A stretch of 51,701 nt of DNA from a virus (lineage: Duplodnaviria; Caudoviricetes): the IMG/VR virus record IMGVR_UViG_3300037313_000136, positions 1-51,701 of that record; one strand, 5' to 3'. Positions 4,279 to 51,701 of this stretch are shown here, piece by piece (the first letter of the stretch is position 1; every line of letters starts with the position of its first letter). The position numbers and the translations under genes are program-made. The notes beneath the pieces are model-generated. The model searched no databases, was not told the origin of the DNA, and worked only from the letters and a program-made list of their open reading frames with translations.

Positions 4279-5349
4279 ATGCGGGAACCATTCGTAGAAA
4301 AGGTTACAAGGCAGAAACCGGGTTTCAACGTTGGAGTTATTCTTGGTTCCAAGACGCCACAGAAGGGTAAAGTTGGAATTGAAATCGAGCTAGAGGGAAA
4401 GAATTTTCTCTATCACGAAAACGTTCCGGCTCCTTGGGTGTACAAGGAAGATGGGTCACTTCGCGGGGAAGAGAGTGCCGAGTACGTCTTGAAGAACCCC
4501 ATCGAGTTCAATGAGGTTGAGAAGGTTCTCAAAACCTTGTTTGACAAACTTGCCGAGAAGAAGGCAAAGTTTGACGACAGCAACAGGACAAGCATCCACG
4601 TACACCTGAACTGTCAGGAATTCTATCTCAACAGGCTCGCAGCTTTCATGGGTCTGTGGTTCTGCCTAGAGGAAATTCTGACCCAGTGGTGTGGTGAGCA
4701 TCGTGTTGGCAACCTGTTCTGCCTGAGGAGCCGCGATGCAACAGCAATCATCTCACAGTTACGGAAGTTTCTCAAGTCTGATGGCAAGTTCGAGCTATCA
4801 GACAATCTCCACTATGCTGGCCTTAACGCCAACGCACTACGCAAGTTTGGCTCGTTGGAAATCAGGACGATGCGGGGAGTATCCGATCCCGATGTAATCA
4901 AGGATTGGGTGGAAATACTTCAACGTCTGTATGAATATTCAGCTGAGTTCAATGATCCTCGCAATGTATGTAGCTTGTTCTCAGGCCACGGACCATTACA
5001 GTACTTCTATGAAGTTCTTGGTGACAAGGCTTCGTGTGTTCGGGCTGGTGTGAACTGGACCGATGAAGAAATCAGAGCAAGCATGTATCGTGGTATCCGT
5101 CTCGCTCAGGATATTTGCTATTGCCGAGATTGGGACTTGTATCGTCCTCAGAGTTTGAAGCCTGACCCATTCAAGCGAGATATGAAGAAGGTTGCCAAGA
5201 AGGTTATTGGGTTTGACTATGAAGATAACCCTAGTCCATTCTCTATGGAAGCATTTCAGCAATACATACAAGGAGCAACAGCAGGGACAGTATATGTTAG
5301 CGGGTCTGATCCTTGGAATAATAGTGTTTCTTTTGATTTACCAAACTAA
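4279..5349 (+). CDS. Putative amidoligase (COOH-NH2 ligase)
   Basis: GIEIELEG, EDGSLRG, EYVL, TSIHVHLN, YAGLN and GSLEIR. Confidence 0.88.
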   Translation: MREPFVEKVTRQKPGFNVGVILGSKTPQKGKVGIEIELEGKNFLYHENVPAPWVYKEDGSLRGEESAEYVLKNPIEFNEVEKVLKTLFDKLAEKKAKFDDSNRTSIHVHLNCQEFYLNRLAAFMGLWFCLEEILTQWCGEHRVGNLFCLRSRDATAIISQLRKFLKSDGKFELSDNLHYAGLNANALRKFGSLEIRTMRGVSDPDVIKDWVEILQRLYEYSAEFNDPRNVCSLFSGHGPLQYFYEVLGDKASCVRAGVNWTDEEIRASMYRGIRLAQDICYCRDWDLYRPQSLKPDPFKRDMKKVAKKVIGFDYEDNPSPFSMEAFQQYIQGATAGTVYVSGSDPWNNSVSFDLPN

Positions 5350-5364
5350 GAAGGAGAAGTAAAC

Positions 5365-6336
5365 GTGACCACAACTAAGTATTTTGTTTATCCGTACACC
5401 ACCATGTCTGCCAGTTCCATTGTTCTTGCTGAGGAACTGGATGCTAAACGCATCAAGCTGAACCACAGTAATTACCATCACAAGCCAGAGAATGTGATTG
5501 TGAACTGGGGTAACAGTGGGTGTCCGTATCCACAGGCACTTAATCCTGCTGATGCAATTTCGGATATTATCAACAAGGTGAAGTTCTTCCAGAAAACGGC
5601 AGGACTTGCTTGTGTTCCGAAGTTCGCCACGACCAAGGCACAGGCAGCCAATCTATCATTTCCGGTGGTGTGTCGTACGGATATTGTTGGAGCTGATGGG
5701 GAAGGCATTAAAATAGCTGAAACACTCGCTCAGTTGCCTTCTTGCAGCTTGTACACTGAGTATATGGACAAGACCAGTGAGTATCGTATTCACCTCGGGC
5801 GGCTGCCTAACGGTGAAGTGACGGTGATCGCTCGTCAGAAGAAGCACAAGTCTGCTGCATTCACTGGCGATCAGCGTATCTGGACGGGATCGGAAACGAA
5901 GCTTGAGTGGATTGACACGGCAGTTTCTCAGGTAGTGTACGCTGCCAAGGAAGTGTTCGCTAAGTTCCCCGGACTTACGTTCGGTGCTTTCGATATTGTT
6001 TACAACAACAGTACGGAGAAGGCCTATGTCCTTGAGATTAACTCGGCCCCGATGCTCACAGCAAAGACGGCTGAGGCGTATGCTACATTCTTCAAGAACT
6101 ACAAAGGAGCAGAAAGTCCGACTATGGAAACAATTGTTGCACCGCCGCAGAGTGAGACTGTTACTAGCAGTCCAACCCCGAACCCCGCTCCGGCAAGTTC
6201 GACGGGTCTGTATGGGTTTGTGAAGAACCAACTTGCTCAGGGCCACATCACCAAGGCTCAGCTTGAGCAGTACACTCCACCAATTACAGAGGAGATTTTG
6301 ATTGGCAACTACATCAACGCGATTACCGCAGCATAA
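5365..6336 (+). CDS. ATP-grasp peptide ligase (RimK/glutathione synthetase-like)
   Basis: IVNWG, FPVVCR, EYRIH, FGAFDIV and VLEINSAP. Confidence 0.88.
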   Translation: MTTTKYFVYPYTTMSASSIVLAEELDAKRIKLNHSNYHHKPENVIVNWGNSGCPYPQALNPADAISDIINKVKFFQKTAGLACVPKFATTKAQAANLSFPVVCRTDIVGADGEGIKIAETLAQLPSCSLYTEYMDKTSEYRIHLGRLPNGEVTVIARQKKHKSAAFTGDQRIWTGSETKLEWIDTAVSQVVYAAKEVFAKFPGLTFGAFDIVYNNSTEKAYVLEINSAPMLTAKTAEAYATFFKNYKGAESPTMETIVAPPQSETVTSSPTPNPAPASSTGLYGFVKNQLAQGHITKAQLEQYTPPITEEILIGNYINAITAA

Positions 6337-14079: not shown

Positions 14080-14638
14080 GTTCAATTACAACAAACCAGA
14101 GGAAAGTGATGTTACACTTCACGACATTGCTTCTGCTCTATCAAACGTATGTCGGTTTAGTGGGCACCTTCCGCGCTTTTATAGTGTTGCTCAGCATCTC
14201 GTTAACGCAAGTTATATTGTTACCAGTGAGAATGCGTTCACGGCTCTGATGCACGATACGGCTGAAGCGTTTACTAACGATCTTCCCACTCCACTTAAGT
14301 GGGCGCTTCCTATCTTCAAGGAATTGGAAGTTAAGATCGAAGGTGCAATGGGTCAGAAGTTTGGATTTCAGTACCCATATCCGCCAGAAGTGAAGACTGC
14401 CGATACAATCATGCTTATGCTTGAGAAGTATCATGTCAAGCAGTGTGATGATTACTGGCCGGGATATTCAGATGAGTACCCACGCGAGAGTGTGGAACAG
14501 TATCTTAATCGTGTTGACTTGACTAGCTGGCGTCCAAGTATTGCACGTAATAAGTTTCTAGCACGTTATGAGGAATTGACTAATGCCCGGAATGCGGTCC
14601 TTCTCTCCGAAGCAGCGACGGGAGCAGAGGCGGCGTAA
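14024..14638 (+). CDS. HD-domain deoxynucleotide phosphohydrolase (YfbR/DatZ-like)
   Basis: CRFSGH, YSVAQH, ALMHDTAEA, DLPTPLK and VKTAD. Confidence 0.88.
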   Translation: MELKTGLDDQWISLLSGAKFNYNKPEESDVTLHDIASALSNVCRFSGHLPRFYSVAQHLVNASYIVTSENAFTALMHDTAEAFTNDLPTPLKWALPIFKELEVKIEGAMGQKFGFQYPYPPEVKTADTIMLMLEKYHVKQCDDYWPGYSDEYPRESVEQYLNRVDLTSWRPSIARNKFLARYEELTNARNAVLLSEAATGAEAA

Positions 14639-17675: not shown

Positions 17676-17874
17676 TGTTCATGGTAATGACCTTACCACA
17701 AAGAAACGTAGGCGTCAGATCAGCCAGATGAAAAAGGAAACCCGTCACGGCGATGTTCTATTTCGCCTGACGGTTGATATGCCTGAGGGAGTGGGTGTAG
17801 ATGAATTCAACCAGTTGATGGTTGAGTACTTTGGTATTGGTTATGAAGCCTTTAAACAGAAAGTGCGACTATGA
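17662..17874 (+). CDS. Hypothetical protein
   Basis: GAGG RBS and ATG 17662; ATGA coupling to the next gene. Confidence 0.65.
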   Translation: MQLVDVHGNDLTTKKRRRQISQMKKETRHGDVLFRLTVDMPEGVGVDEFNQLMVEYFGIGYEAFKQKVRL

Positions 17875-18197
17875 TGGGTCTTCCTAATCCTTACGTTCTT
17901 GCTGGCGGTGGCGTAGCTGTTTTGATGATTGGGGCTTCTATTTATATTCAGAGTACACTAATTCACAAGTGGCATGTTCAGTACGACAATGAAGTAATCG
18001 CCTTCAATCTGGAACACCAGAAAGTAGTGGATATGACTACTGAGCAAAACAACCAGACTGGTAAATCTGAACAGGCAGTTATTAAGGTTGTGCAGGGTCC
18101 ACGTGAAGTGCAATCTATCATCAAAGAAATAGAGGCTGCACCGGCAAAACCGTGTACAGCCCCAGTAGATTCTGACGAGGTGAAGAATGCGTTTTAA
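17871..18197 (+). CDS. Inner-membrane spanin (Rz-like)
   Basis: N-terminal TM, periplasmic helical region, C-terminal Cys; overlaps a lipoprotein gene. Confidence 0.7.
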   Translation: MMGLPNPYVLAGGGVAVLMIGASIYIQSTLIHKWHVQYDNEVIAFNLEHQKVVDMTTEQNNQTGKSEQAVIKVVQGPREVQSIIKEIEAAPAKPCTAPVDSDEVKNAF

Positions 18198-41520: not shown

Positions 41521-43160
41521 GTTGTACCGTCACGATAAACTGGAACGATGTTGGAGCCACCACCAACAACGGCTGCACCAAAGTTGCCTGCGGCAACAAC
41601 GGTTGAGTCACTGACCATAGCCTTTCCGAAACCAGTCGAAGGAAGGGTAGCTACGGTGTAAGTTGTAGTGAATCCGATTGATTTCAGGTTATTTAGATTA
41701 CCGTATACAATTGAGTTAATTCCATCCCCACCGAACTGAAGGTCTTGCGGATCGCCGATACGAATAATCGTTGGAGCGCTGTTGTTCTGATCCTTCTTAT
41801 TACTGAAAATCCAGAGGTCAGTTGTATCGCTTGTTATGTTGGCCGGATCAGAATACCAGAAGTTATTGGTCAAGGTAACAGCTCTGCAAGTCTTGCTACA
41901 GAAGTCTACGAATGACAAACTGTTGCCTGAAATAAGCAGACCACTTGTACTACCACCAGAAATTCTAATACTTGGATACGTGACAACATTAGAGAACAGA
42001 TTTCCCATAATCACACCAGTCATAGGTGCTAAGTTGGGATCAATCCATGCCACGCTGACATTGGTTGCGTCTCCAAGCCAGTTACCAGTAAACATACCCA
42101 CGTTAATTGCGGCACCCAAAGCAACACTGGCGCTTGAGAAGTCGCAATAGATGGCCTTAGGCATACCGCCTGTGAAGCCATCGTTAGTCCCTTCGAACCA
42201 ATTCCCAGCAATGTGCCAACCCTGACTGGGGTTGATAATAGCTCCAATGGTAACGTTCTGGAAGGTGTTGCGTGTAACGACAATACCGTTAGAGTAAAGA
42301 ATGTTTCCTACTCCACGTTCCTTCTGACCTCGTATACAAGCTTGTGCCCATCCAAGGTTATTGTCCACTACCGAGGAAAGAATTGCTCCTTCCAAACTAA
42401 TGCAGCTACGAGCTGAGTGGATTCCACCAAGACCCCCAACCAGACACCGCTCCACTAGCGCGTAAGCAGGATCAGGCGTTGAAGGAGCGGCTAGGTTAGT
42501 AAAGGCGATCAGATCACCAGTAAAGGAGGACGAAGAATTCCGAACACCAAGGTTGGAAACTGTAACTGCGTAAGAACTGGCACCGTTGATAAAAGGACTC
42601 GAACCACCACCAGTGTAAATCAACTGAGACGGTGGCGGAATGTGATAACCAATACCACTACCGGCAGCGCCTACCAAACGAATGTTGTACTTGTTGTTTA
42701 GATTGATTTGACCCGAACAAAGAGTGTGGGCCGGAATGTACACTATGCCCCCACCAACTGCTTCAGCGGCTGCAATAGCCGCGTTAACAGCGGTGACATC
42801 ATCTGTGCCAGTAATGGTGGCTACGTTAGTCCAGTCGGTGGCAGCACCATCACACTTAGCTCCATAGTCCCTAATATCAAAAACTGGCAAGCCGGAAAGC
42901 TCACCAGACTGTACAGGATTAAGAGCTGTGATAAGTGCGTTGACCTGACCAAGATTCACTGCATCTGAGTTACTCACGCCATCCGCTAGGTTACGAACAG
43001 CGAAGTGGTTCATATCCAGATCGACCTGCATACTATTAGTGCCGTCACCGGTTCGGGACAGCATCTCATCCAGTAGGCTGGCAATCTCAGTGAAGTTATC
43101 GTTCAGGGCTGCAATGGCATCGTAGGCCGAGAGGATATTGGTGGGTGTAAAACGGGACAA
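41505..43160 (-). CDS. Tailspike with pectin-lyase-like beta-helix
   Basis: N-terminal anchor LNDNF..LSRTG..NSMQVDLDMN; IRDYGAKCDG, DDVTAVNAAI and GGIVYIP; Asn ladder. Confidence 0.82.
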   Translation of the reverse strand: MSRFTPTNILSAYDAIAALNDNFTEIASLLDEMLSRTGDGTNSMQVDLDMNHFAVRNLADGVSNSDAVNLGQVNALITALNPVQSGELSGLPVFDIRDYGAKCDGAATDWTNVATITGTDDVTAVNAAIAAAEAVGGGIVYIPAHTLCSGQINLNNKYNIRLVGAAGSGIGYHIPPPSQLIYTGGGSSPFINGASSYAVTVSNLGVRNSSSSFTGDLIAFTNLAAPSTPDPAYALVERCLVGGLGGIHSARSCISLEGAILSSVVDNNLGWAQACIRGQKERGVGNILYSNGIVVTRNTFQNVTIGAIINPSQGWHIAGNWFEGTNDGFTGGMPKAIYCDFSSASVALGAAINVGMFTGNWLGDATNVSVAWIDPNLAPMTGVIMGNLFSNVVTYPSIRISGGSTSGLLISGNSLSFVDFCSKTCRAVTLTNNFWYSDPANITSDTTDLWIFSNKKDQNNSAPTIIRIGDPQDLQFGGDGINSIVYGNLNNLKSIGFTTTYTVATLPSTGFGKAMVSDSTVVAAGNFGAAVVGGGSNIVPVYRDGTTWRIG

Positions 43161-43245
43161 GAAGCTTCTGTTCCTTAGATATCGCAGATATTCTGCTCAT
43201 TAGAATCTCAACCGGAGGTCGATAGACCGACGCTCCTATACACAT

Positions 43246-43274
43246 ATTATAACATATTTAAATCTAAATGTCAA
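43246..43274 (-). promoter_or_regulatory. Consensus sigma70 promoter heading the structural arm
   Basis: TTGACA-tttagatttaaatatgt(17)-TATAAT. Confidence 0.88.
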
Positions 43275-43363
43275 GCTTTATTTTCGGGGCTCAGAACGCT
43301 GCGAAGCTGCGCTTCACTTCGCTGCGCTCATCCTAAAGAAATCAAGTACTTACAAAAAAAGAC

Positions 43364-43392
43364 TTGACAAACCCTTCAGTATATGTTATAAT
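43364..43392 (+). promoter_or_regulatory. Consensus sigma70 promoter, divergent from 43246-43274
   Basis: TTGACA-aacccttcagtatatgt(17)-TATAAT. Confidence 0.85.
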
Positions 43393-43619
43393 ACTCTTAG
43401 TTGGCACGCCGGTAAATATATCTATTACTAATTATAGAAGAAACTATTAGCATATGGGCGATCCATATATAAGTCAATAGTCAAATCATAAAATATCTGT
43501 AGTCCTTCCGAGAATTCTCCATTTTCTTGGTGGGACTTTTTTGGTGTGTGGTGCAGCAGACAGGCCACCCCCACTCCCCCGGCTCCCCCGCAGCATGATA
43601 TAACGTCCCCGGCATTGCT

Positions 43620-43683
43620 ATTGCGAGTCATTCTCAGCACTCCTGAGCGGCACGTGTCCCTGCTAATGCGAATCATTCTCAAC
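43620..43683. promoter_or_regulatory. Two Fur-box-like sites 45 bp apart
   Basis: ATTGCGAGTCATTCTCAGC (43620-43638) and AATGCGAATCATTCTCAAC (43665-43683). Confidence 0.55.
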
Positions 43684-43696
43684 TGTCTGTAATCCA

Positions 43697-43713
43697 TGCA
43701 ATATCCGTGCCAA
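43697..43713 (-). promoter_or_regulatory. sigma54 (-24/-12) consensus site
   Basis: TTGGCACG-GATA-TTGCA. Confidence 0.6.
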
Positions 43714-43821
43714 TCCTCGCGCGTAAGTCTATCTCTCCGCGTACACCTGAATGATACAACATATCATCTCATCAACCAGTAACTATTTGATACTAACTTT
43801 CGATATGGGTATTCTTACAGC

Positions 43822-43849
43822 TTGCAACCATCCGGCGTTCTGCTAGTTT
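43822..43849 (+). promoter_or_regulatory. Candidate early promoter
   Basis: TTGCAA-16-TAGTTT (GCTAG -10 context) directly before the structured leader. Confidence 0.4.
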
Positions 43850-43852
43850 TGT

Positions 43853-44000
43853 TGCTGTCGCCGATGCAGACGCTCCCGACACGCTCTCGTGAGAGCAACA
43901 GGGACGCAAACCCGGACGCGACAAACATAGTCATGGGTTGTCCTAGTGACTGCCCACCAATCAGGCCCCTCTAGGGCGTACGAATACGTACACTATGGGC
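43853..44000 (+). ncRNA. Structured leader RNA (two multibranch domains)
   Basis: TGTCG/CGACA closing a domain with GCTCTC/GAGAGC; CATAGT/ACTATG closing a domain with GCCC/GGGC and GTACG/CGTAC. Confidence 0.45.
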
Positions 44001-44022
44001 CGTTAAAATGGGATGACGTTTA

Positions 44023-44301
44023 ATGACTAGGCATCAGCGGCGCAAGGCTGCGCGTGCCAGAAAGGATGCTAAAGGCGAGTTGCTGAACAGTCGTGCACTG
44101 CACGTTCTACAGCAAGCGAAGCTGAAGGCGAACTTGATGGAACGCAAAGCCAAGCGAAGTCCGAAAGGGCTAGGCAACCGTGGCATTTACTCGGGTATGG
44201 GTTTGTATCCTGCGCCGGGATATGGTACGGGAGCGTTCAAAGAGAAGCCATTGAGTGAGCGGCAATGCCGTGAGCACAGGGCACTTGACAAACAACGCTA
44301 G
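44023..44301 (+). CDS. First early protein, basic, with N-terminal arginine-rich motif
   Basis: MTRHQRRKAARARK. Confidence 0.7.
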   Translation: MTRHQRRKAARARKDAKGELLNSRALHVLQQAKLKANLMERKAKRSPKGLGNRGIYSGMGLYPAPGYGTGAFKEKPLSERQCREHRALDKQR

Positions 44302-44304
44302 GTG

Positions 44305-44855
44305 CATTACCTAGTCACACATAACTATCGCAAACGGTACGCCGCAAACGATAGTGCGGATTAAGGCAAGCCAGTCTCTTGTCTAGGTAGCTGGAACGGC
44401 GGCCCTCACCTTGAATGTCACAAGGTAGAGAAAGCATCCTCTGTCCCGTAGGGATATGATGGTAAGCTATGCGCTCTAGGCGCGGGCTGTTAGTCACGCT
44501 AAAGCGGTGACGCACAATCTATCATCGTGCGTTGCTGTGGCGGCTAGGCTGGTTGTAGGCGACACGCAAGTGTTGTCCCGGATTATTCCGAACCGGCGAC
44601 AAGATTAACGGTGACTGTGCAAATAACCTAGGGTTAGTGTATTGAGTTACACGTATGGTCGCGGTACGCCCGTTCATTGCGTTGTAAGTGATGGACGCGA
44701 GCTAGAAAGCTCCTCGGTAATGGCAATCCTTTGTGGTTGCGGCAACAACCTAACAAGGTTGTGATGGCAAGCGCCGAAGTTGTGTATGAGGCACAAGCCT
44801 AGGCCAACAGGTATTAATGAGCTAGCGGACGCGCTACGGGAGTTGCCCGCTTGCT
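44305..44855 (+). ncRNA. Candidate large structured ncRNA (about 550 nt)
   Basis: No + strand ORF in the track; more than a dozen consecutive helices with G-U pairs on the + strand. Confidence 0.65.
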
Positions 44856-44879
44856 TTCACAGCTTTGGAGGGAAAGACA

Positions 44880-45134
44880 ATGCTGGTACTTATCGGACAA
44901 ACTGAAGAATTGAATTGTTGGGCCGATCAGCCACACGCCTATAACGTGTACTATCGGAACGAACAAAGCGGGAGATTGTGCCGCTATTGCATAACTCCAA
45001 TGTCTCGTGAACTTGCTGAGGAATATGCTCGCAAGTTTAATGAGCGATACTTGGATATACACGGACGCGGGAAAGCTTTTCCCAATGGCCGTGGCTATTA
45101 TCCGTACAGTAAAGCGTGGGTTGATTTCCACTAA
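44880..45134 (+). CDS. Hypothetical early protein
   Basis: GGAGG RBS and ATG 44880. Confidence 0.7.
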   Translation: MLVLIGQTEELNCWADQPHAYNVYYRNEQSGRLCRYCITPMSRELAEEYARKFNERYLDIHGRGKAFPNGRGYYPYSKAWVDFH

Positions 45135-45147
45135 GAGGATTAAGAAA

Positions 45148-45360
45148 ATGGTTATGCTCCGTAGTCCTAGCACGGCAGGCGAACGTAAGTTCGATGTGTA
45201 CGTGCGGGAAGTCGGCGGATACGTCCACAAGGTTGGAACAGTGTTCGCCAACAACAAGATACAAGCAGATACTAAGGTCCGCATGATGTACGGGCGAACG
45301 CTAACTGATGGGCGCGTCGCTTATGCGGTGGACCCGATGCCAATGGGAGCGAACGCATGA
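45148..45360 (+). CDS. Hypothetical early protein
   Basis: GAGGA RBS and ATG 45148. Confidence 0.65.
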   Translation: MVMLRSPSTAGERKFDVYVREVGGYVHKVGTVFANNKIQADTKVRMMYGRTLTDGRVAYAVDPMPMGANA

Positions 45361-45467
45361 GGAAACATGATGCACTTCAATCGCGCTTGTGGCGCGAGCA
45401 GATACAGCGAGACTTGCAAGGTTATCGGCATCCGCTGAAAAATAATCGAAGCCAAGAACAAAACTAA
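45357..45467 (+). CDS. Small early peptide (36 aa)
   Basis: GGAG RBS and ATGA coupling. Confidence 0.5.
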   Translation: MRKHDALQSRLWREQIQRDLQGYRHPLKNNRSQEQN

Positions 45468-45618
45468 TCTATCATCGTCGTTGCACACACGTTTGCAATA
45501 GGCACACAGAGAAGCTGGTGCATGATATGACTTTGCATTGACGCCTCTGTGTGTCTTCTCCAAGCGTGTGCTTGGCCGTGGACAACCTACGGGATTACCA
45601 CAAAAGGAGAAGTGAATT

Positions 45619-46404
45619 ATGGCACGTAGAGCAGCAGGATTACTTGTCGGTTTGACTGCTATTTCAGCAGGCATCCGCGAATTGAAGGGCGTCATTAACA
45701 ACGTGTACGACCGTGCACAGCTTGTTGGTGTGTCCATCATCAACCATGACCTGAATGGCGGCAATGACGGCTCACCTACTGGTGACTGTTCAAAGGCCAA
45801 GGATTTGGTCAATGTGCTCAAGACGCAGGAAGATAAGCGTAACATGGTCGCTTGGCTTGCGTATTTCGGCAACATCGGCGTGAAGATGGAAAACGGTACT
45901 GCTACCGAGGTCCGTCACTTTCAGGCCGACAACAAGCGTTACCGTCAGCCTGACTTGGACGGCGCGAAGGCTAACAAATGGTATGAACCCTATCTGCCCA
46001 ACGGCGAGAAGGCTCATTGGTTTGAAGGCCCGGCCAAGCCGCTCTATACGCCGGGAACCCTTGGCGACATTGGCGACAATGTTATCACGTTTGCTGAGCG
46101 GTTCCTTGGAACTGATCGACGCATCGGCCAGCTTTATGACAAGGTTGATGCAGGCAACGGTGACAAGGTTAATCGGTACAATCTCAGTGATGAGGAAATC
46201 CAGCAGGCTGAGGCGCTGTTCAATGGCGTCCGCAAGTTTGGCTTGATGCTCATGGCTCGGGAACGTGCCGAGGAATACACGGCTGAAGTCGTGAAGCTCA
46301 ATGAGTTTCTCGATCAGGCAACCAAGGTTATCAACGATGTGAATAACATCGGAGAGAACCCAACGGAAACCACGACTGAAGATGTTCAGGAAATGGTTGC
46401 CTGA
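45619..46404 (+). CDS. Hypothetical early protein (261 aa)
   Basis: AAGGAG RBS; long ORF. Confidence 0.8.
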   Translation: MARRAAGLLVGLTAISAGIRELKGVINNVYDRAQLVGVSIINHDLNGGNDGSPTGDCSKAKDLVNVLKTQEDKRNMVAWLAYFGNIGVKMENGTATEVRHFQADNKRYRQPDLDGAKANKWYEPYLPNGEKAHWFEGPAKPLYTPGTLGDIGDNVITFAERFLGTDRRIGQLYDKVDAGNGDKVNRYNLSDEEIQQAEALFNGVRKFGLMLMARERAEEYTAEVVKLNEFLDQATKVINDVNNIGENPTETTTEDVQEMVA

Positions 46405-46485
46405 ATAATCCCCTGTATCTAGCTTTCATCCCTCCGTTGGCTAGATGCTCGGCGCTGCTCCGACGCTAGAAAATATCGGGCACTT

Positions 46486-46665
46486 AATTTATATAGACTG
46501 TCGCAATCGGGTTGATTGGGATAACGACATACAACTTATAATGACCATTGATGGCCTAGCCTAGAGTATGGTCGGAGTTGGACAGACGCAATCTAATTTG
46601 TTGGTTGCTACCAGCTGTCTAGTTATCTAATCCTTTCAATGGGATATGGGCAGTCTTTATAAGTT
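46486..46665 (+). ncRNA. Candidate structured RNA (about 180 nt, closed multibranch)
   Basis: AATTTATA-T-AGACTGTC / GGCAGTCT-T-TATAAGTT closing stem; nested GATTGGGATAAC/GTTATCTAATC. Confidence 0.5.
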
Positions 46666-46678
46666 GGTGAGAATTATT

Positions 46679-46765
46679 ATGGTTGTATATGCCATATACG
46701 CCTATGTAATAATTGTTGTTGTAGTCGCTCTTGTATGGAGTAAACACAATGGCAAAGACAAGTGA
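46679..46765 (+). CDS. Small single-pass membrane peptide (28 aa)
   Basis: GGTGAG RBS; MVVYAIYAYVIIVVVVALVWSKHNGKDK. Confidence 0.55.
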   Translation: MVVYAIYAYVIIVVVVALVWSKHNGKDK

Positions 46766-46994
46766 CAAACCAATCTATCATCGGCGCATGTCAGCGGCGC
46801 AGTTAAGGCGTCGTTGGCGTAATAAGCGAACACATCAGCAGCTGTATGACGCCAGCGATTGGCTCCGGTCTGTTGAAGTTGACGCCACTGGATTTGCGAG
46901 AGTTTGGATTGGCGTCGGTCTGCAAATAGCGGCGTCACACTTGGAAGAACTAGCCAATGAGATATTGGTGGAGGATATAATCAATGACCAATAA
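46749..46994 (+). CDS. Hypothetical early protein
   Basis: GGAG RBS and ATG 46749. Confidence 0.65.
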   Translation: MAKTSDKPIYHRRMSAAQLRRRWRNKRTHQQLYDASDWLRSVEVDATGFARVWIGVGLQIAASHLEELANEILVEDIINDQ

Positions 46995-47160
46995 ACCACT
47001 TCACATCATATTTGATGGTCCGCCCGGACCTGAGGCTGGTCGTTTTGTAGAGTGTGAAACTCCCGATGGTCAGAGCATAAACGCAGGAGAATGGCGTGAG
47101 AGGGATGATGGTTATTGGGAATTAATCATTCCTGACCGCATTTCGATGGACGATAATTAA
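46984..47160 (+). CDS. Hypothetical early protein (58 aa)
   Basis: GGAGG RBS; FDGPPGPEAGRFVECE. Confidence 0.7.
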   Translation: MTNKPLHIIFDGPPGPEAGRFVECETPDGQSINAGEWRERDDGYWELIIPDRISMDDN

Positions 47161-47190
47161 GTTACTCAACGGCATAGTAGGAGAACGAAC

Positions 47191-47790
47191 ATGCCAAACA
47201 GTAAGCGCGAAACCAAGCCCAAGCTTGGTATTAAAGCCGATAAGCCTGCAAAGACGCGGGTTGAGGAAATGTTCGGAGGCGTTGGCTACGTCAGTCAAGA
47301 CGGGCCAGTGATGAAGGTGGATGCGGAAATCCCACTGCCTGAACACGCTGACCCTGAACCTGACCAACCATCTGTACGAGATATTAAGGATCGGGTGGAA
47401 GGATTGTTTCGCTCTATCGGTACGGCGGCCTTGCCCGATACAGTCTTTCCATCCGGTACTCGCAACAATGGTCCGCAAGCTGCTGAGTTTGTTGTGGCCG
47501 AACAGCTTAAGAAGCTGGCTGAGAAGCGGTACGAAGAAGCCAAGAAAAATGGCAAGGACGCTGGTTGTTTTGGTGATGAAACCAAATACGTTGCTGGCGA
47601 GACTGTTGAGGTTTATCGTACGCCCAACTTCACATTCAGTGTTCAGCGCAATCAGGACAGCAACATGATTGACCGTAAGGCAGTTGAAGACTTGCTGCGT
47701 GATATTGCGCCAACCAAATGGCAGGAATTGCTGAAGCGTTGTGAGAAGCCGAAGGCAGGAGCCACACGGTTTATTGTTGCGCTTCGGTAA
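47191..47790 (+). CDS. Hypothetical early protein
   Basis: AGGAG RBS; 199 aa. Confidence 0.8.
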   Translation: MPNSKRETKPKLGIKADKPAKTRVEEMFGGVGYVSQDGPVMKVDAEIPLPEHADPEPDQPSVRDIKDRVEGLFRSIGTAALPDTVFPSGTRNNGPQAAEFVVAEQLKKLAEKRYEEAKKNGKDAGCFGDETKYVAGETVEVYRTPNFTFSVQRNQDSNMIDRKAVEDLLRDIAPTKWQELLKRCEKPKAGATRFIVALR

Positions 47791-47829
47791 ACGAGGTCAC
47801 TCACTAACGGGTGACACAAAGGAGAGAGT

Positions 47830-48015
47830 ATGAAGCAGACCATTTGGTACGGCTCGACACCGCAGGGTGTTACCTTCGCCAAGTCGAAGAACCAGCTTGA
47901 GCAGTCAAGCCAGCTCTCCGGCAACATTGGAAGCTTCACTGTGGACGGTGAAATCACTGGGTTGAACTACGTGGACAACACGCAGTCATCTCAGTCATCG
48001 ACACAGCACGCTTAA
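47830..48015 (+). CDS. Hypothetical early protein
   Basis: AAGGAG RBS. Confidence 0.65.
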   Translation: MKQTIWYGSTPQGVTFAKSKNQLEQSSQLSGNIGSFTVDGEITGLNYVDNTQSSQSSTQHA

Positions 48016-48155
48016 TCCAACGAGACTTGACAGTTTTGTTTAAACTGTCCGTTGAGCCAACTGGAAACGGGGCGCTCTCACATACGGTACGTCAAGCCGT
48101 ATTCATTCCCCAGCGGGGGCTGGGTTAGCTTACTTTGAGCGGGAGTAGTGGCATC

Positions 48156-48314
48156 ATGGAACAGGCACAACTGTTTGTAGCAGCCAAGAAGAATGGCAAC
48201 ATCTTGTTGAACGTCGGTGGTTGTGGTTTTCCACAGAGTATTAGTCCCAAGGATTTAATTAATATCTGCGTACGCCGAGTTGATACTCGGAATAGAAGTC
48301 GAGACACGGCCTAA
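48156..48314 (+). CDS. Small hypothetical protein (52 aa)
   Basis: GGGAG upstream of ATG. Confidence 0.4.
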   Translation: MEQAQLFVAAKKNGNILLNVGGCGFPQSISPKDLINICVRRVDTRNRSRDTA

Positions 48315-48587
48315 GAAGCCGGTCTAACCAATCGAGAACAAAGCATAAATGAGATTGGGTAAACTCCGCATCGTTCTGATGCGTTGAGTATTTTCCCAAA
48401 CAAGAATGAATTTAGTTTCGAGCCGGTTTTCGGAACCGGCCTGTCGGCAACCAACAGAGTGGTTGCAAACTCAGACCTGAGCTAGCGGGTTGCTGAGAGG
48501 CCAGTGGAAATCTGGCCAACCAATCTATCATCGTCGGCGGCGCATACGTGCGTCCAGCAATTCTAACAGCAGTAGTGAGAAGCAACA

Positions 48588-48938
48588 ATGCACGTCCATG
48601 ACAAGATATTTGTGTACGGAACTCTTAAGCAAGGGTTCGGTGCCAACAGCATTCTACAAGGTAGAGCGGAGTTTATAACTGATGATCGGATTGAAGGATC
48701 GTTGTATAATTTGGGAGCCTTTCCGGGGTATAAAACCTCGGGTTCCGGCATGGTCGCTGGTGAAGTCTATGAGATCACCGACGAGAACCTTCCTGCCATG
48801 CTTGACAACTATGAGAACTACCCAAGTTTGTACACAAGAGTAAAGATGCACACCGAAAAGGGATACAACGCTTGGGTGTATGTAATCAATGAGAACATGT
48901 ACGAGAAGAACCTAATTCAAGAGGGAGTTTGGGCATAA
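48588..48938 (+). CDS. Gamma-glutamylcyclotransferase (AIG2-like)
   Basis: IFVYGTLKQG, GAFPG, GEVYEI, LDNYE, YTR and AWVY. Confidence 0.9.
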   Translation: MHVHDKIFVYGTLKQGFGANSILQGRAEFITDDRIEGSLYNLGAFPGYKTSGSGMVAGEVYEITDENLPAMLDNYENYPSLYTRVKMHTEKGYNAWVYVINENMYEKNLIQEGVWA

Positions 48939-49165
48939 TGTCTGCATCAAAAAGCAGGTATCCAGAAAGACCACAGCGACCGCCGCCTAAGAAACCAAAC
49001 AAGGGTCGTGGTCGTCCTTCTTCGGAGAAGAACCACAAGAAGTCAAAAGTTTGGCTATCTTCCAACAACATCTTCAATGAGAAGATTGATGTGTCACCTC
49101 CCACCAGCGATCCTTGGTGGAAGTGCCCGATGATGAAAGCAGAAAGGCTGTTGAAATGGCGCTGA
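48938..49165 (+). CDS. Basic hypothetical protein
   Basis: TAATG coupling to GGCT. Confidence 0.5.
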   Translation: MSASKSRYPERPQRPPPKKPNKGRGRPSSEKNHKKSKVWLSSNNIFNEKIDVSPPTSDPWWKCPMMKAERLLKWR

Positions 49166-49569
49166 GACTTGTCTTTCATGGTGGGAAATGCTGCGGGATT
49201 AAGACTATTCACGGCCTTGAATATAATCCTACCGATAATGTTCCGGCTGTGGAAAAGAAAAAATTCATGGAGAACGATGAGTATGGTCAAGAAGTTAAAT
49301 CGGATTTAGACTTCTTCACAGATGCAGCTCCGAAGGAAACGTATCTACAACGTGTAGATAGGATGATTGCTTTCTGTGAGAGACATCGTCCTCAAGGTAT
49401 TATTGAAATTGTATTGGCTGATACAACTTATGAGCCGGGGGGTTATTACGATCAAACAAGAAACTGGGCACCGTTGCTCAGACGACGAAAGTTCAGATGT
49501 GTTAACAAGTGTAAGAACAGTAACAGCGGTAACACTGTGCATGTGTTCCACCGCAACAGTGGAGAATAG
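49156..49569 (+). CDS. Hypothetical protein with Cys-Cys motif
   Basis: AAGG RBS and ATG 49156 (frame open from 49114). Confidence 0.7.
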   Translation: MALRLVFHGGKCCGIKTIHGLEYNPTDNVPAVEKKKFMENDEYGQEVKSDLDFFTDAAPKETYLQRVDRMIAFCERHRPQGIIEIVLADTTYEPGGYYDQTRNWAPLLRRRKFRCVNKCKNSNSGNTVHVFHRNSGE

Positions 49570-49571
49570 CA

Positions 49572-49952
49572 ATGAAATGGGAACCCAGTGTTGCCCCGTT
49601 AATTGGAAAAACATTCACAAAAGTCCATTCATACGGCGAATTTGATTGTAACCCCTGTATAACTTTTGAAGTTAATGATGAAATCGAATACATTCTTGGC
49701 AAGCGGCAAGATTGTTGTGAGAGTTTTTATTTGGATGAAGTGCATGGAGATTTATCTGATTTAGAAAACACTCCAATTATTCAGGCAGAAGAAAGCACAG
49801 GGTCAATACCAACGGCATCTGAAAGTGGTACATGGACTTTCTATAAATTAGCTACAATTAAAGGACACGTGACTATTCGCTTCGGCGGTGAGAGTAATGG
49901 TTATTATTCTGAAGCCGCCAGTTTATATTCCAAGGAGAAGCAAAATGCCTGA
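49572..49952 (+). CDS. Conserved-type phage hypothetical protein
   Basis: GGAG RBS; QDCCE, SGTWTFYKLATIKG and SNGYYSE. Confidence 0.8.
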   Translation: MKWEPSVAPLIGKTFTKVHSYGEFDCNPCITFEVNDEIEYILGKRQDCCESFYLDEVHGDLSDLENTPIIQAEESTGSIPTASESGTWTFYKLATIKGHVTIRFGGESNGYYSEAASLYSKEKQNA

Positions 49953-50733
49953 TGCAACTAAGATTGAATTCCTCCGGTTTGGAAGTAGCATTCCCGGTGC
50001 TTATTGGGGTTGCTGTTGTGCTGATATTATTCAGTGTTTCAGTGGCGATCCTGACGCCAAGGCATCTATCCAGATGGTGGACGGTGATGGTTGTTCACCA
50101 ATGTTCATTCAACGTGATGGAAGACAGAAGCAGGCTTTCGCTGGTCCAACCAACCGTGACATTTTCATGCAGCGAATTAGGGTTGGTACGTTTGGTATCA
50201 GCGACATGCCCAATCATGCGTTCTTCGCTATCCTGACTGACGAGCAGTGCAACAGTTCGAATGGCAAGAAGTGGTTGCAAATCCTCAAGGAGACTGGGTT
50301 TGAATTCCTGAGACGAGTGAATAACTCTGTGTGGAATGTCAACAACAATATCTTTGTGTTGATTAGAAACTGCGGCGCGAACTCAGTAAAGGATCAGTTC
50401 GAACCGCCTAAGTACTGGACTGAACTACCATCGGTCGTTCCCGAGCCGTGGGAAGATTATGGTCATACAGATTTTCCTGCCGTTGACTACTGTGAGGGTA
50501 AAGACTTCGACACTGTAGAATATACCAAGCGGATCAAGACTGCTCAGAAGGAGATTTGGGACAAGATAGGTCCAGCCAAGTTCCTGACTGAAGCGGAGAT
50601 TGAAGCTGCTGGTGCTCCGGTTATCCTTGCTGCCAAGCGAGACTATACACCGCAGCAAGATAAGAAATTGCGAGAAGCGAGAGAGAAAGCTAAAACAGCA
50701 ACAACAACACCATCACTTAAGAATTACGCATAA
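49945..50733 (+). CDS. Hypothetical protein with Cys-Cys-Cys motif
   Basis: AAGGAG RBS and ATG 49945. Confidence 0.8.
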   Translation: MPDATKIEFLRFGSSIPGAYWGCCCADIIQCFSGDPDAKASIQMVDGDGCSPMFIQRDGRQKQAFAGPTNRDIFMQRIRVGTFGISDMPNHAFFAILTDEQCNSSNGKKWLQILKETGFEFLRRVNNSVWNVNNNIFVLIRNCGANSVKDQFEPPKYWTELPSVVPEPWEDYGHTDFPAVDYCEGKDFDTVEYTKRIKTAQKEIWDKIGPAKFLTEAEIEAAGAPVILAAKRDYTPQQDKKLREAREKAKTATTTPSLKNYA

Positions 50734-51031
50734 CTACACATGACGACTGACCAAGAAGCTGCCTCTAAGTGAGATGGGTGCAAGTCCCATCCGCCTCTTA
50801 GACCATTATCAAATGGTATTCAACTGTGAGTGTCGTCCCTGCATCTGGTGCAAAGGTAAGAGCTTAATAGCTAATGACCGGTTAGCTGCCTTTGAGTAAG
50901 ACATACGGCCCACACGTCCCGCGCCCAAATTATGTAGCTGTGAAAGGTGAGTTGAGGCCCGACCACAGGTGTCGGTGGCCGAGACAATTTGGGAAGGATC
51001 AGCGTAGGAGGTGCAAGTCAGTGTGTGTAGT
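50733..51031 (+). ncRNA. Candidate structured ncRNA (about 300 nt) with T-loop hairpin
   Basis: Ends pair over 15 bp; GATGGG-TGCAAGT-CCCATC; several nested helices. Confidence 0.65.
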
Positions 51032-51032
51032 C

Positions 51033-51080
51033 GGGGGCAGGGAGCAGGTATCCAACACCGGCTTCCTGCCTTCACAATTT
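51033..51080 (+). terminator. Strong hairpin after the ncRNA (terminator-like, weak U tract)
   Basis: GGCAGGGAGC / GCTTCCTGCC followed by TTCACAATTT. Confidence 0.4.
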
Positions 51081-51093
51081 AGGGATTAGCGCC

Positions 51094-51315
51094 GTGCTAA
51101 ACTTATATCTAATCCAATTGAAATGGGAGTTGCACGACGCAGCTTGGGCTAATCTCATGGGAGACACCCAGTATGCGGAGGAAAAACTCCGAGACATAAC
51201 GAGAAGGTACATAGAATATGTCTACGAAGGGAAAAAGAAAAATAAGAACCGCAAACAAGAGAGCGAAGAAAACAACAACGAAGGGTCTGAGCGGTCTGAT
51301 CCCGCTTTCAAGTGA
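51094..51315 (+). CDS. Hypothetical protein
   Basis: AGGGA upstream of GTG; overlaps the next gene. Confidence 0.5.
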   Translation: MLNLYLIQLKWELHDAAWANLMGDTQYAEEKLRDITRRYIEYVYEGKKKNKNRKQESEENNNEGSERSDPAFK

Positions 51316-51701
51316 AGAGATAAACAAGAAGATTGAAGATAACAGGCAGATGCAACTCCCAACACAGCTACCAGCCATTTCTCACAATGATACTGCGCCA
51401 CTAGACCTCCTTGGTCGTAAGAAAAGTGACTACGCACAAACCCGAAGGGTGACAGTTTTGGAAGATAGTTCAATACCATATCCAGAGCTTTGGTTGACTG
51501 TGTACATTCACGGACCTGAGGCTGGTTTCAACTTCAACAAGATGTTTGCTAGGGCCAAGTGCTACAAGGCCAATCTGCCTGACGATGCTGACTTGGTTGT
51601 GTTCACGGGGTCGTCACACGATATTGACCCTCAGTTGTATGGGCAGCCACCACACAAATCGGTTACTCTCAATCCTGCGCTGGACAAGGCAAATCTATCA
51701 T
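51218..51701 (+). CDS. Class I glutamine amidotransferase / peptidase C26-like protein, 5' part (continues at position 128)
   Basis: Open frame from ATG 51218 into the terminal overlap, in frame with 1-672; ATG 51350 is an alternative start. Confidence 0.8.
   Translation, partial: MSTKGKRKIRTANKRAKKTTTKGLSGLIPLSSEEINKKIEDNRQMQLPTQLPAISHNDTAPLDLLGRKKSDYAQTRRVTVLEDSSIPYPELWLTVYIHGPEAGFNFNKMFARAKCYKANLPDDADLVVFTGSSHDIDPQLYGQPPHKSVTLNPALDKANLS

What the first reader, a model, noticed from the sequence alone, without database searches (positions are those of the whole stretch)
43820..51090. Integrated hypothesis: an RNA-centred early module controlling host takeover
Seen: roughly 1.8 kb of this 7.3-kb block is non-coding yet densely base-paired in six separate units, in a genome whose other genes abut or overlap. 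The units share a looped motif, the first gene is an arginine-rich candidate RNA binder, and downstream genes rely on non-AUG starts and unregulated-looking promoters. Inference only: a processed set of phage RNAs plus a small protein that act on transcription elongation, translation initiation or host defence. The links between these parts are not demonstrated by the sequence.
Basis: inference. Interest (0 to 1): 0.8.

Follow-up and report, generated by a model that had tools for sequence, protein, structure and literature searches.

The report
Phage early operon: RNA cassette, nick-like motif
This is the early-gene region of an uncultured soil phage, in which a small arginine-rich protein gene is always followed by one conserved folded RNA, while the repeated "motif" is a one-strand DNA word spread over half the genome that most resembles the programmed nick sites of some Pseudomonas phages.

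Summary
The block is real but is not one RNA-centred module. About 2.0 kb of 7.3 kb has no conserved ORF. One gap hides a conserved 52-aa gene. Only unit B (44302-44879) is a demonstrably conserved structure. Its core (44372-44472) lies just downstream of the arginine-rich (ARM) gene in 13 of 15 loci searched and shows compensatory pairing. It matches no Rfam family.

Local folding of the gaps is no stronger than in coding sequence.

The shared motif is a 9-mer, ATCTATCAT. It has 7 unique copies in the genome, all on the + strand, and 3 of them lie inside genes outside the block. It recurs at syntenic places in relatives: 42 copies on the ARM strand, 0 on the other. This matches the published pattern of nick-associated 9-mers in tf/LUZ24-like phages, to which this phage is distantly related. 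No nick could be shown, because only contigs were available.

All 17 gene starts checked are ATG, bar one GTG. The only strong promoters lie outside the block.

Verdict: partly supported. A new variant of known kinds.

The parts
43364..43392 (+). Perfect consensus sigma-70-type promoter (TTGACA, 17 nt, TATAAT, with TG before the second hexamer). It is the presumed early promoter and lies upstream of the finding.
   Evidence: A perfect promoter lies 631-1013 nt upstream of the ARM start in 10 of 10 loci that hold enough upstream sequence.
43400..44022 (+). Long untranslated leader. Its 5' two-thirds are conserved, and it holds a C-rich, G-poor tract at 43565-43594 (21 C and 4 G in 30 nt).
   Evidence: Fold z-score only -1.45.
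44023..44301 (+). Gene of the 92-aa arginine-rich (ARM) protein. It has 24 Arg+Lys, and the N-terminus is invariant at M1, R3, R6, R7 and K8.
   Evidence: AlphaFold2 predicts a helix at residues 3-40, with pLDDT 94-97 over the first 30 residues. No Pfam or PHROG family.
44325..44560 (+). Conserved multi-helix structured RNA, the 5' part of unit B. The covariance-model core is 44372-44472. It includes a hairpin with a 7-nt loop at about 44408-44426.
   Evidence: RNA-library contigs cover 44344-44765.
44517..44525 (+). Motif copy 1 (ATCTATCAT). Here it lies in the 11-nt loop of a 12-bp hairpin.
45467..45475 (+). Motif copy 2, at the start of unit C.
45486..45570 (+). Long, imperfect hairpin of about 30 bp in unit C. 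Behind it, a CUUCUCC stretch (about 45556-45562) can pair with the Shine-Dalgarno GGAGAAG of the 261-aa gene.
   Evidence: The 3' 45 nt are nearly invariant in three genomes.
46773..46781 (+). Motif copy 3, 24 nt inside the 81-aa gene that starts at 46749. It is read in a different frame in G1 and G3.
48156..48314 (+). Conserved 52-aa ORF hidden inside the fifth 'non-coding' unit.
   Evidence: relatives in G1 (45% identity, E 3e-8) and G3 (E 0.002).
48367..48383 (+). Small conserved hairpin behind the 52-aa ORF, followed by a conserved CUCCCAAAC-like box.
   Evidence: stem pairs change on both sides among W, G1 and G3.
48523..48531 (+). Motif copy 4, 57 nt upstream of the GGACT gene (48588-48938).
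50734..51093 (+). Unit F. It holds two hairpins that carry GGTGCAAGTC (50777-50786 and 51010-51019) and a 13-bp hairpin at about 51033-51072. It is conserved in G1 and absent from G3.
   Evidence: RNA-library contigs cover 50752-51259. Fold z-score -0.93.
51693..51701 (+). Motif copy 5 (the same copy as 119-127, through the 127-nt assembly overlap), inside the GATase-like gene. The contig ends on its last base.
5651..5659 (+). Motif copy 6, inside the ATP-grasp gene (5365-6336), 286 nt after its start.
18113..18121 (+). Motif copy 7, inside the last plus-strand gene (17871-18197).

Best explanation
The block is the early operon of an uncultured soil or rhizosphere podovirus that is distantly related to the tf/LUZ24-like Pseudomonas phages. 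It encodes no RNA polymerase. The operon is read from one perfect consensus host-type promoter at 43364, through a leader of about 630 nt. Three separate things are overlaid in it.

(1) A conserved cassette. It consists of a 92-aa protein with an N-terminal arginine-rich helix and, immediately behind its gene, one multi-helix structured RNA. I infer that the protein binds this RNA on the nascent early transcript. I further infer that the complex acts like an N/nut-type antiterminator or transcript protector, which lets host polymerase run on through the long untranslated gaps into the delayed-early genes. The co-occurrence and the RNA structure are shown. The binding and the effect are inferred.

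(2) A strand-specific DNA word, ATCTATCAT. The genome has 7 copies, all on the sense strand of the early/middle block. Its relatives carry it at syntenic places. It most likely marks site-specific single-strand nicks in packaged DNA, like the TACTRTGMC sites of phage tf. It is not an RNA loop motif. This step rests on analogy only.

(3) Ordinary untranslated-region elements in the other gaps: a long processing-type hairpin, a helix that sequesters a Shine-Dalgarno sequence, small conserved hairpins, and one overlooked small gene.
For: THE PHAGE.
- The window is a complete 51.7-kb virus record.
- The structural genes lie on the minus strand and the replication genes on the plus strand. No RNA polymerase family was hit among the ORFs scanned.
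- 9 window ORFs hit phage tf by tblastn at 24-53% identity. They include the amidoligase, GATase, ATP-grasp, COOH-NH2 ligase and AIG2 set. The convergent two-block layout is the same.

THE CASSETTE.
- The ARM family has 40 protein clusters, none with a Pfam family. M1, R3, R6, R7 and K8 are invariant.
- AlphaFold2 predicts a helix at residues 3-40 with pLDDT 94-97 over the first 30 residues.
- RNAalifold on four genomes gives 55 pairs, of which 27 have changes on both sides. 93.6% of cells are paired, 0 of 500 shuffles reach this, and slid controls give 4-5 such pairs.
- Covariance model R1 hits 13 of the 15 loci searched that carry an ARM-type gene, always just downstream of that gene. Each record gives one hit, apart from a partial re-hit in L012, which overlaps L011.
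- In the 11-sequence alignment, 90.9% of cells are paired and 13 of 22 pairs have changes on both sides.
- A perfect consensus promoter lies 631-1013 nt upstream in 10 of 10 loci with enough sequence.
- Contigs from three RNA libraries cover 44344-44765.

THE MOTIF.
- Copies on the two strands (with the reversed-pattern control) are: G000 8/0 (control 1/0), G001 7/0, G003 8/0, G004 6/0. One copy in each of G000 and G003 is counted twice through the assembly overlap.
- A further 15 copies, against 0 on the other strand, lie in the fetched parts of L016, L025, L028, L029 and L030.
- The spacing is syntenic in W, G1 and G3.
- Information is confined to positions -2 to +9. There is no second box.
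- The flanks are near-random at most sites.
- Copy 3 is read in different frames in different genomes.
- Published behaviour of the tf and Rembedalsseter nick motifs: a 9-mer, 9-14 copies, one strand only, similar positions among relatives, mostly on the coding strand, often at gene starts.
- In tf, 12 of 14 nicks lie in the plus block. The last lies about 300 nt before the end of that block. One lies 266 nt into the ATP-grasp gene. Here copy 7 ends 76 nt before the end of the last plus-strand gene. The ATP-grasp gene carries a copy at +286 (W), +283 (G1) and about +163 (G3).
- Contig ends fall 0, 6, 29 and 30 nt after a motif copy in four records.

THE OTHER GAPS..
Against: - No nick was observed. 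Every run that holds the sequence is kept as contigs, which cannot show molecule ends.
- The motif sequence differs from the tf consensus. The tf word is absent from the window's plus strand and occurs once on the minus strand.
- No nickase candidate turned up among the ORFs scanned.
- All copies lie on the sense strand of transcribed genes, which an RNA-level signal would also explain. In four genomes copy 1 is displayed in a hairpin loop inside the structured RNA.
- Two of the four contig-end coincidences are the same place in one sample, and branching between strain variants could cause them.
- The ARM protein matches no antiterminator family.
- No boxA/boxB-like pair was identified.
- The terminator scan found no plus-strand terminator-like site in the gaps. 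Its 3 plus-strand sites all lie within 49992-50100, inside a gene. There is therefore no visible terminator to override.
- RNA-library contigs do not prove transcription.
Confidence: 0.5

Rival explanations
1. The motif is an RNA signal, displayed in loops or single-stranded stretches of the early and middle transcripts. The ARM protein or a host RNase recognises it, so the units, the motif and the protein form one RNA-based control circuit.
For: - All 42 copies lie on the strand of the ARM gene, that is, in sense transcripts.
- Copy 1 sits in an 11-nt hairpin loop whose stem changes on both sides among W, G1, G2 and G3.
- Four copies lie at or near the ends of non-coding units.
- RNA-library contigs span copy 1.
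Against: - A hairpin that encloses the motif is clearly stronger than with shuffled flanks (z -3.05) at only 1 of the 7 window copies. Among all 20 copies tested, only one more (G3, z -2.69) is below -2.
- Three of 7 copies lie inside genes far from any unit.
- G4-type relatives keep the ARM gene and the RNA but have no motif copy in that RNA.
- L032 has an ARM-type gene but no motif in the 10 kb fetched.
- The last copy lies at the very end of the transcription block, where a control signal has nothing left to control.
Confidence: 0.15
2. The motif is a compact promoter element: a '-10-like' TATCAT core read by host polymerase together with a phage factor. It would drive delayed-early and middle transcription.
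For: - The phage has no RNA polymerase of its own, and only one strong plus-strand promoter was found for a 26-kb gene block.
- Copies 1, 2 and 4 lie upstream of genes.
- The same motif-plus-Shine-Dalgarno cassette precedes different genes in W and G3.
Against: - There is no conserved second box or spacing.
- Copy 3 lies downstream of the only usable start codon of its gene in G1 and G3.
- Copies 5-7 lie inside genes, and the last would drive transcription into the convergent late genes.
- There is no copy at all on the late-gene strand.
Confidence: 0.1
3. Nothing integrated at all. The gaps are spacer or decayed-gene sequence with incidental folding. The ARM protein is a DNA-binding, nucleoid or other host-takeover protein, and the conserved element behind it is a DNA site or part of a replication origin rather than an RNA.
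For: - Local fold z-scores in the gaps equal those in coding sequence.
- Units D and E2 give weak consensus structures.
- Unit F is missing in G3.
- The cumulative GC-skew minimum lies at 43-44 kb.
- An 18-nt core of the element is invariant in several relatives, which also fits a protein-binding DNA site.
Against: The compensatory changes in four helices are hard to explain for a duplex DNA site: 7 of 8 pairs in the main hairpin change on both sides, with 97% of cells paired. RNA-library contigs cover the element.
Confidence: 0.15

Closest known systems
Localized single-strand interruptions (nick motifs) of LUZ24-like phages: tf, 5'-TACT/RTGMC-3' (PMC3517423), and Rembedalsseter, WACTRTGAC (PMC11780129)
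   Same: A 9-nt word with 7 copies (9-14 in those phages), all on one strand. The places are syntenic among relatives that share little flanking sequence. Copies lie mostly or wholly on the coding strand of the early/middle block, often at gene starts, and one lies near the end of that block. The genome layout is the same, and a module of replication and amidoligase genes is shared.
   Different: The word is different (ATCTATCAT). There is no copy in the late block, where tf has 2 of 14. Nicks are not demonstrated here. The structural genes are nearer to SIO1-type phages, with the capsid protein at most 53% identical.
Lambda-type N protein with its nut-site RNA (processive antitermination). 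This comparison is recalled from general knowledge and rests on no call.
   Same: A small, basic, largely disordered protein with an N-terminal arginine-rich helix. It is encoded as the first gene behind the main early promoter. There is one conserved hairpin-bearing RNA element per operon.
   Different: There is no sequence membership (no Pfam hit). The RNA is a multi-helix domain of about 235 nt rather than a short box-plus-hairpin, and it lies downstream of the gene. No terminators are visible in the gaps. Function is untested.
5'UTR-derived non-coding RNA candidates and structured untranslated regions of virulent Pseudomonas phages found by ONT-cappable-seq (PMC10914365)
   Same: These are phages that depend on host polymerase and carry conserved, structured, possibly regulatory RNA pieces in untranslated regions. 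LUZ24 is listed with 2 such candidates.
   Different: Those candidates are defined by transcript ends. Here only sequence, covariation and RNA-library contigs are available, and homology to them was not tested.
RNase III processing hairpins between the early genes of T7-type phages (recalled from general knowledge)
   Same: A long, imperfect intergenic hairpin of about 30 bp between early genes, in unit C.
   Different: No cleavage data exist. The hairpin is only loosely conserved in G1 and G3.

Membership tests
Nick-associated one-strand motifs of tf/LUZ24-like phages | A short exact word far over-represented in the genome | tested here: met
   There are 7 unique copies of a 9-mer in 51.6 kb. 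The reversed-pattern control gave 1 copy in G000 and 0 in G001, G003 and G004.
Nick-associated one-strand motifs of tf/LUZ24-like phages | All copies on one DNA strand | tested here: met
   42 copies on the ARM-gene strand and 0 on the other, in 9 records. Four records were searched whole and five only in the part fetched.
Nick-associated one-strand motifs of tf/LUZ24-like phages | Similar positions among relatives despite diverged flanks | tested here: met
   Offsets from copy 1 are: W 0, 950, 2256, 4006, 7176, 12708, 25170; G1 0, 995, 2330, 3743, 6743, 11171, 24731; G3 0, 980, 2416, 4076, 7402, 11462, 23750 (computed). Identity of the flanks is about 0.5-0.6 at most sites.
Nick-associated one-strand motifs of tf/LUZ24-like phages | The published consensus word (TACTRTGMC / WACTRTGAC) | tested here: not met
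   There are 0 copies on the plus strand of the window and 1 on the minus strand. ATCTATCAT is absent from tf.
Nick-associated one-strand motifs of tf/LUZ24-like phages | Physical single-strand breaks at the word in virion DNA | not testable with these tools
   All runs that hold the sequence are kept as contigs. The only indirect hint is that contig ends fall 0-30 nt behind a copy in four records.
Nick-associated one-strand motifs of tf/LUZ24-like phages | Kinship with the LUZ24-like group | tested here: inconclusive
   9 ORFs hit tf at 24-53% identity and the layout is the same. The capsid protein is nearest to SIO1-type phages, and there is no nucleotide-level match.
Lambda N / nut antitermination | Protein belongs to a described N family by sequence | tested here: not met
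   No Pfam or PHROG family at E <= 0.01. The profile search of PDB sequences gave only a non-significant match (E 0.82) to the N-terminal arm of a plant-virus coat protein.
Lambda N / nut antitermination | Small basic protein with an N-terminal arginine-rich helix, encoded first behind the early promoter | tested here: met
Lambda N / nut antitermination | Cognate RNA site (box plus short hairpin) on the same transcript | tested here: inconclusive
   One conserved structured RNA per genome lies next to the gene. It is much larger than a nut site, and no box-like element was identified.
Lambda N / nut antitermination | Downstream terminators that are read through | tested here: not met
   The consensus scan found no plus-strand terminator-like site in the gaps. 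Rho-dependent sites cannot be scanned with these tools.
Any Rfam family, or tRNA/tmRNA | Match to a curated covariance model, or an ARAGORN call | tested here: not met
   No Rfam match at gathering score. Only 4 chance-level matches at E <= 5 in 43100-51701, none of them in unit B. None in the relatives except a spurious hit in a repeat-rich gene. No tRNA in the window.

The most novel reading that the evidence does not exclude
A conserved leader / ARM-protein / structured-RNA cassette is a new ribonucleoprotein switch of early phage transcription. It would be N-like in logic but unrelated in sequence. The cassette is: perfect promoter, then a 0.6-1 kb leader with a C-rich tract, then the arginine-rich protein gene, then a folded RNA of roughly 235 nt or more. 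It occurs in a whole clade of uncultured soil phages. The same clade also carries a previously undescribed nick-type DNA word, ATCTATCAT. In one subclade that word has been placed in a loop of this RNA, which would couple a DNA mark to the early transcript.
Probability: 0.25. Interest if true: 0.75.

Novelty: new variant of a known kind. Interest (0 to 1): 0.55.

Why it matters
The function of programmed nicks in phage DNA has been unexplained for about 50 years (PMC11780129, section 3.9). A second, unrelated word with the same one-strand, syntenic behaviour in a distant clade would show that the habit is older and wider than the Pseudomonas phages. It would also give a comparative handle on which features matter: strand, gene starts, and the end of the early block.

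Separately, the ARM gene with its adjacent covarying RNA is a compact protein-RNA pair that can be tested directly. It is found in at least 13 loci of uncultured phages and matches no Rfam or Pfam family. If it proves to be an antiterminator or transcript protector, it would be a new example of RNA-based early control in phages that rely wholly on the host polymerase.

Tried and rejected
- Megablast of the block against 50,697 phage records found no match. tblastn of the 261-aa protein found no match either.
- Rfam gave nothing relevant at gathering score or at permissive E-values, in the window or in the relatives. ARAGORN found no tRNA or tmRNA in the window. One doubtful minus-strand call lies inside a gene of L012.
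- I tested whether the motif is always shown in a hairpin loop. This is rejected: it is clear only at copy 1.
- I tested whether the motif encodes a conserved peptide. This is rejected: copy 3 is read in different frames in different genomes.
- I tested whether sequence diverges more on one side of the motif. No asymmetry was found.
- I tested whether the six units are copies of one RNA. This is rejected: model R1 finds one copy per genome, and the 7-nt-loop hairpin is unique.
- Units D and E2 gave weak consensus structures with three sequences.
- I looked for a nickase (HNH or similar) among 10 further ORFs and found none.
- I looked for an ARM homologue in tf and found none.
- The ESM Atlas gave only unnamed clusters at 0.76. 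The PDB profile search gave one non-significant hit.
- Read laying: parts of the block without RNA-contig cover, and the break points of the DNA contigs of run X8, say nothing either way, because only contigs were available. No silent stretch was laid as a control for DNA carry-over.
- A literature search for the 9-mer together with 'phage' returned 53 papers. The 8 listed are on unrelated topics by title, and I opened none of them.

Full report
WHAT THE WINDOW IS. The window is a complete virus record of 51,701 bases whose two ends repeat 127 bases, which is an assembly overlap. PHROG and Pfam scans show a podovirus-type structural block on the minus strand (19.1-43.2 kb). It holds terminase, portal-type adaptor, major head protein, a 1,585-aa internal virion protein and tail proteins. 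A plus-strand block runs from about 43.4 kb through the record junction to 18.2 kb. It holds primase/helicase, DNA polymerase, exonucleases, endonuclease I, ribonucleotide reductase, and a set of glutamine amidotransferase, COOH-NH2 ligase, amidoligase, ATP-grasp and GGACT genes. No RNA polymerase family was hit among the ORFs scanned. There is no nucleotide-level match in 50,697 phage records. The capsid protein is at most 53% identical to SIO1-type marine phages. However, 9 ORFs hit Pseudomonas phage tf at 24-53% identity, and the layout matches tf: two convergent blocks, with the amidoligase set ahead of the replication genes. The DNA occurs in soil and rhizosphere metagenomes.

THE OBSERVATION. 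Comparing stop-to-stop frames with two relatives (G1 and G3) confirms these genes: the ARM gene (44023-44301), 45148-45360, 45619-46404, 46749-46994, 47191-47790, 47830-48015, 48588-48938, 49156-49569, 49945-50733 and 51094-51315. It also reveals a conserved 52-aa ORF at 48156-48314, inside the fifth 'unit'. About 2.05 kb of the 7.27-kb block has no conserved ORF. A crude greedy ORF call leaves 744 of 24,960 nt uncovered in the structural block, against 4,474 of 26,614 nt in the plus block. So the early region really is unusually loose.

The claim of dense base-pairing holds only in part. Whole-unit z-scores are -4.4 for units B and E, about -2.5 for C and D, and -1.45 and -0.93 for A and F. 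Coding controls of equal length gave -0.7 to -2.2, with one at -4.49. A 120-nt scan found no difference between non-coding and coding windows (20 against 199 windows, p = 0.39).

Sixteen of the 17 starts I checked are ATG, most with a purine-rich stretch upstream, and one is GTG. Promoter-like matches are not enriched. The two perfect consensus promoters, one on each strand, lie at 43246-43392, outside the stated coordinates.

THE MOTIF. The shared element is ATCTATCAT, preceded mostly by CA and followed mostly by C. It occurs at 44517, 45467, 46773 and 48523 in the block. It also occurs at 119 (the same copy as 51693), at 5651 and at 18113, inside genes. All copies are on the plus strand.

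Three complete relatives carry 7, 7 and 6 copies, again all on the strand of the ARM gene, with 0 matches of the reversed control. The fetched parts of five further records add 15 more copies and none on the other strand. In W, G1 and G3 the seven copies have nearly the same spacing. Even so, the 60-nt flanks are close to random identity at most sites, and copy 3 is read in different frames in different genomes. The word is therefore selected as nucleic acid.

There is no second conserved box. A hairpin that presents the motif in its loop is clear only at copy 1.

This is the published signature of nick-associated motifs in the tf/LUZ24-like group: a 9-mer, 9-14 copies, one strand only, similar positions in relatives with little nucleotide similarity, mostly on the coding strand, and often at the start of coding sequences. 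I read passages of PMC3517423 and section 3.9 of PMC11780129.

In the annotated tf record, 12 of 14 nicks lie in the plus block. The last lies about 300 nt before the end of that block, and one lies 266 nt into the ATP-grasp gene. Here the last copy ends 76 nt before the end of the last plus-strand gene. The ATP-grasp gene carries a copy at +286 (W), +283 (G1) and about +163 (G3).

One further hint points to a DNA-level discontinuity. The window's contig ends exactly on the last base of a copy. Three other contigs end 6, 29 and 30 nt behind a copy. The last two are the same place in one sample. By simple arithmetic, an exact coincidence has a chance of about 7 in 51,574. A strain variant in the RNA-library contigs also diverges from the window exactly after the last base of copy 1. 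None of this shows a nick, and raw reads were not available.

THE ARM GENE AND THE RNA BEHIND IT. The 92-aa protein has 24 Arg+Lys, 9 of them in the first 30 residues. It has 40 related protein clusters in metagenomes, none with a Pfam family. The N-terminus is the most conserved part: M1, R3, R6, R7 and K8 are invariant. AlphaFold2 predicts a helix over residues 3-40 with pLDDT 94-97 over the first 30 residues. The middle is disordered, and a weaker C-terminal helix follows.

Directly downstream, four genomes share a multi-helix fold. RNAalifold predicts 55 pairs, and 27 of them have changes on both sides. 93.6% of cells are paired and 0 of 500 column shuffles reach this. When the partners are slid by 1-3 columns, only 4-5 such pairs remain. 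The caveat is that the structure was derived from these same sequences.

A covariance model of the 100-nt core finds one hit per record, apart from a partial re-hit in L012, which overlaps L011. The hit always lies 60-220 nt behind the ARM stop. This holds in 13 of the 15 loci searched that carry an ARM-type gene. The two misses are a locus that ends too early (L031) and the most distant one (L032). The model finds nothing in tf.

In the 11-sequence alignment, 90.9% of cells are paired. Thirteen of 22 pairs, and 7 of 8 pairs in the main hairpin, change on both sides. This alignment is fitted to the model, so it leans that way. An 18-nt core is invariant in several relatives. No Rfam family matches. 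Contigs of three RNA libraries cover 44344-44765, and one spans copy 1 without a break. This is weak evidence of transcription, because DNA carry-over was not controlled.

Upstream, a perfect consensus promoter lies 631-1013 nt before the ARM start in 10 of 10 loci with enough sequence. Each leader holds a C-rich, G-poor tract.

THE OTHER UNITS.
- Unit C holds a long imperfect hairpin. Its 3' 45 nt are almost invariant, and an upstream CUUCUCC stretch can pair with the Shine-Dalgarno sequence of the 261-aa gene.
- Unit E2 holds one small covarying hairpin and a conserved box.
- Unit D aligns poorly. In the window it contains an unconserved 39-aa hydrophobic ORF.
- Unit F is conserved in G1, where one of its hairpin loops resembles the T-arm of a tRNA, but ARAGORN calls no tRNA. 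Unit F is absent from G3.

These look like ordinary untranslated-region elements rather than members of one family.

HOW IT MOST LIKELY WORKS. What is shown: one strong host-type promoter, a long leader, the ARM gene, one covarying RNA, long untranslated gaps, and a strand-specific DNA word. What I infer:
- The ARM helix binds the adjacent RNA on the nascent transcript. The complex then keeps host polymerase, or the transcript, going through the untranslated gaps. This is N/nut-like logic without family membership.
- The word marks nicks made late in infection on the strand that is sense for the early block, as in tf.

The two features are separable. G4-type relatives have both, but the word is not in the RNA. 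tf has a nick word but neither the ARM gene nor the RNA. L032 has an ARM-type gene but no copy of the word in the 10 kb fetched.

COMPARISON AND NOVELTY. The nick reading makes this a new word for a known but unexplained kind of signal. The ARM-RNA cassette resembles N/nut in logic only. The published 5'UTR-derived RNA candidates of virulent Pseudomonas phages (passages of PMC10914365) show that such elements are expected in phages that depend on host polymerase. I found no description of this 9-mer as a phage signal, but I only saw the listing of 8 of 53 papers that hold the string.

Earlier notes of this scan reach the same nick reading for other phages. I treat them as leads, not as evidence.

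Noticed in passing
window 43333-43829: The early leader is better conserved than most genes (77-85% identity to G1). It contains a C-rich, G-poor tract (43565-43594; 21 C and 4 G in 30 nt) that recurs in the leaders of all 10 relatives with enough upstream sequence. It looks like a Rho-loading site, or a G-quadruplex on the opposite strand. Its function is unknown.
   Followed up: partly
window 43246-43274 (minus strand): A second perfect consensus promoter (TTGACA, 17 nt, TATAAT, with TG) points the other way, towards the tailspike and late genes. It lies only about 90 nt from the early promoter.
   Followed up: no
window 43616-43636 and 43661-43681: Two 21-nt direct repeats (90% alike) lie 45 nt apart in the leader. 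They could be an operator or another binding site.
   Followed up: no
window 51701 (contig end); L016 2982-2996; L010 and L011 ends: Contig ends fall 0, 6, 29 and 30 nt behind a copy of the 9-mer in four records. The G2 and G3 ends are the same place in one sample.
   Followed up: partly
window 44526-44591: In contigs of three RNA libraries, a co-occurring strain replaces these 66 nt with 33 other letters. The replacement starts exactly after the last base of motif copy 1.
   Followed up: no
window 48523-48590 and L012 4165-4192: The same cassette (9-mer, short spacer, GAGAAGCAACA, ATGCAC) precedes the GGACT gene in the window but a different, Cys-rich gene in G3. This is a mosaic junction at a motif copy.
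   Followed up: partly
window 46646-46765: A 39-aa ORF encodes a strongly hydrophobic, membrane-helix-like peptide inside unit D. It is not conserved in G3.
   Followed up: no
window 50768-50800 and L007 about 14345-14385: A hairpin in unit F has a 7-nt loop that in G1 reads like a tRNA T-arm followed by an acceptor-like strand. ARAGORN calls no tRNA. It could be a tRNA remnant or a tRNA-like processing signal.
   Followed up: partly
window 51218-51701 + 128-6336: A cluster of GATase-like, class-II glutamine amidotransferase, COOH-NH2 ligase, amidoligase and ATP-grasp genes, plus GGACT at 48588, is shared with phage tf (24-36% identity). It is a peptide-ligase-type module of unknown target.
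   Followed up: partly
window 673-1107: Another gap of 435 nt without a plus-strand ORF of 45 aa or more lies between the GATase-like and amidotransferase genes, outside the finding.
   Followed up: no
L032 (contig of 50,234 nt in a MAG titled uncultured Cellvibrionaceae bacterium): The most distant ARM-type gene lies on a phage-sized contig binned with a gammaproteobacterial MAG. A perfect promoter lies 864 nt upstream and the leader is C-rich. There is no 9-mer copy and no RNA-model hit in the 10 kb fetched. As a clue to the host it is weak at best.
   Followed up: no
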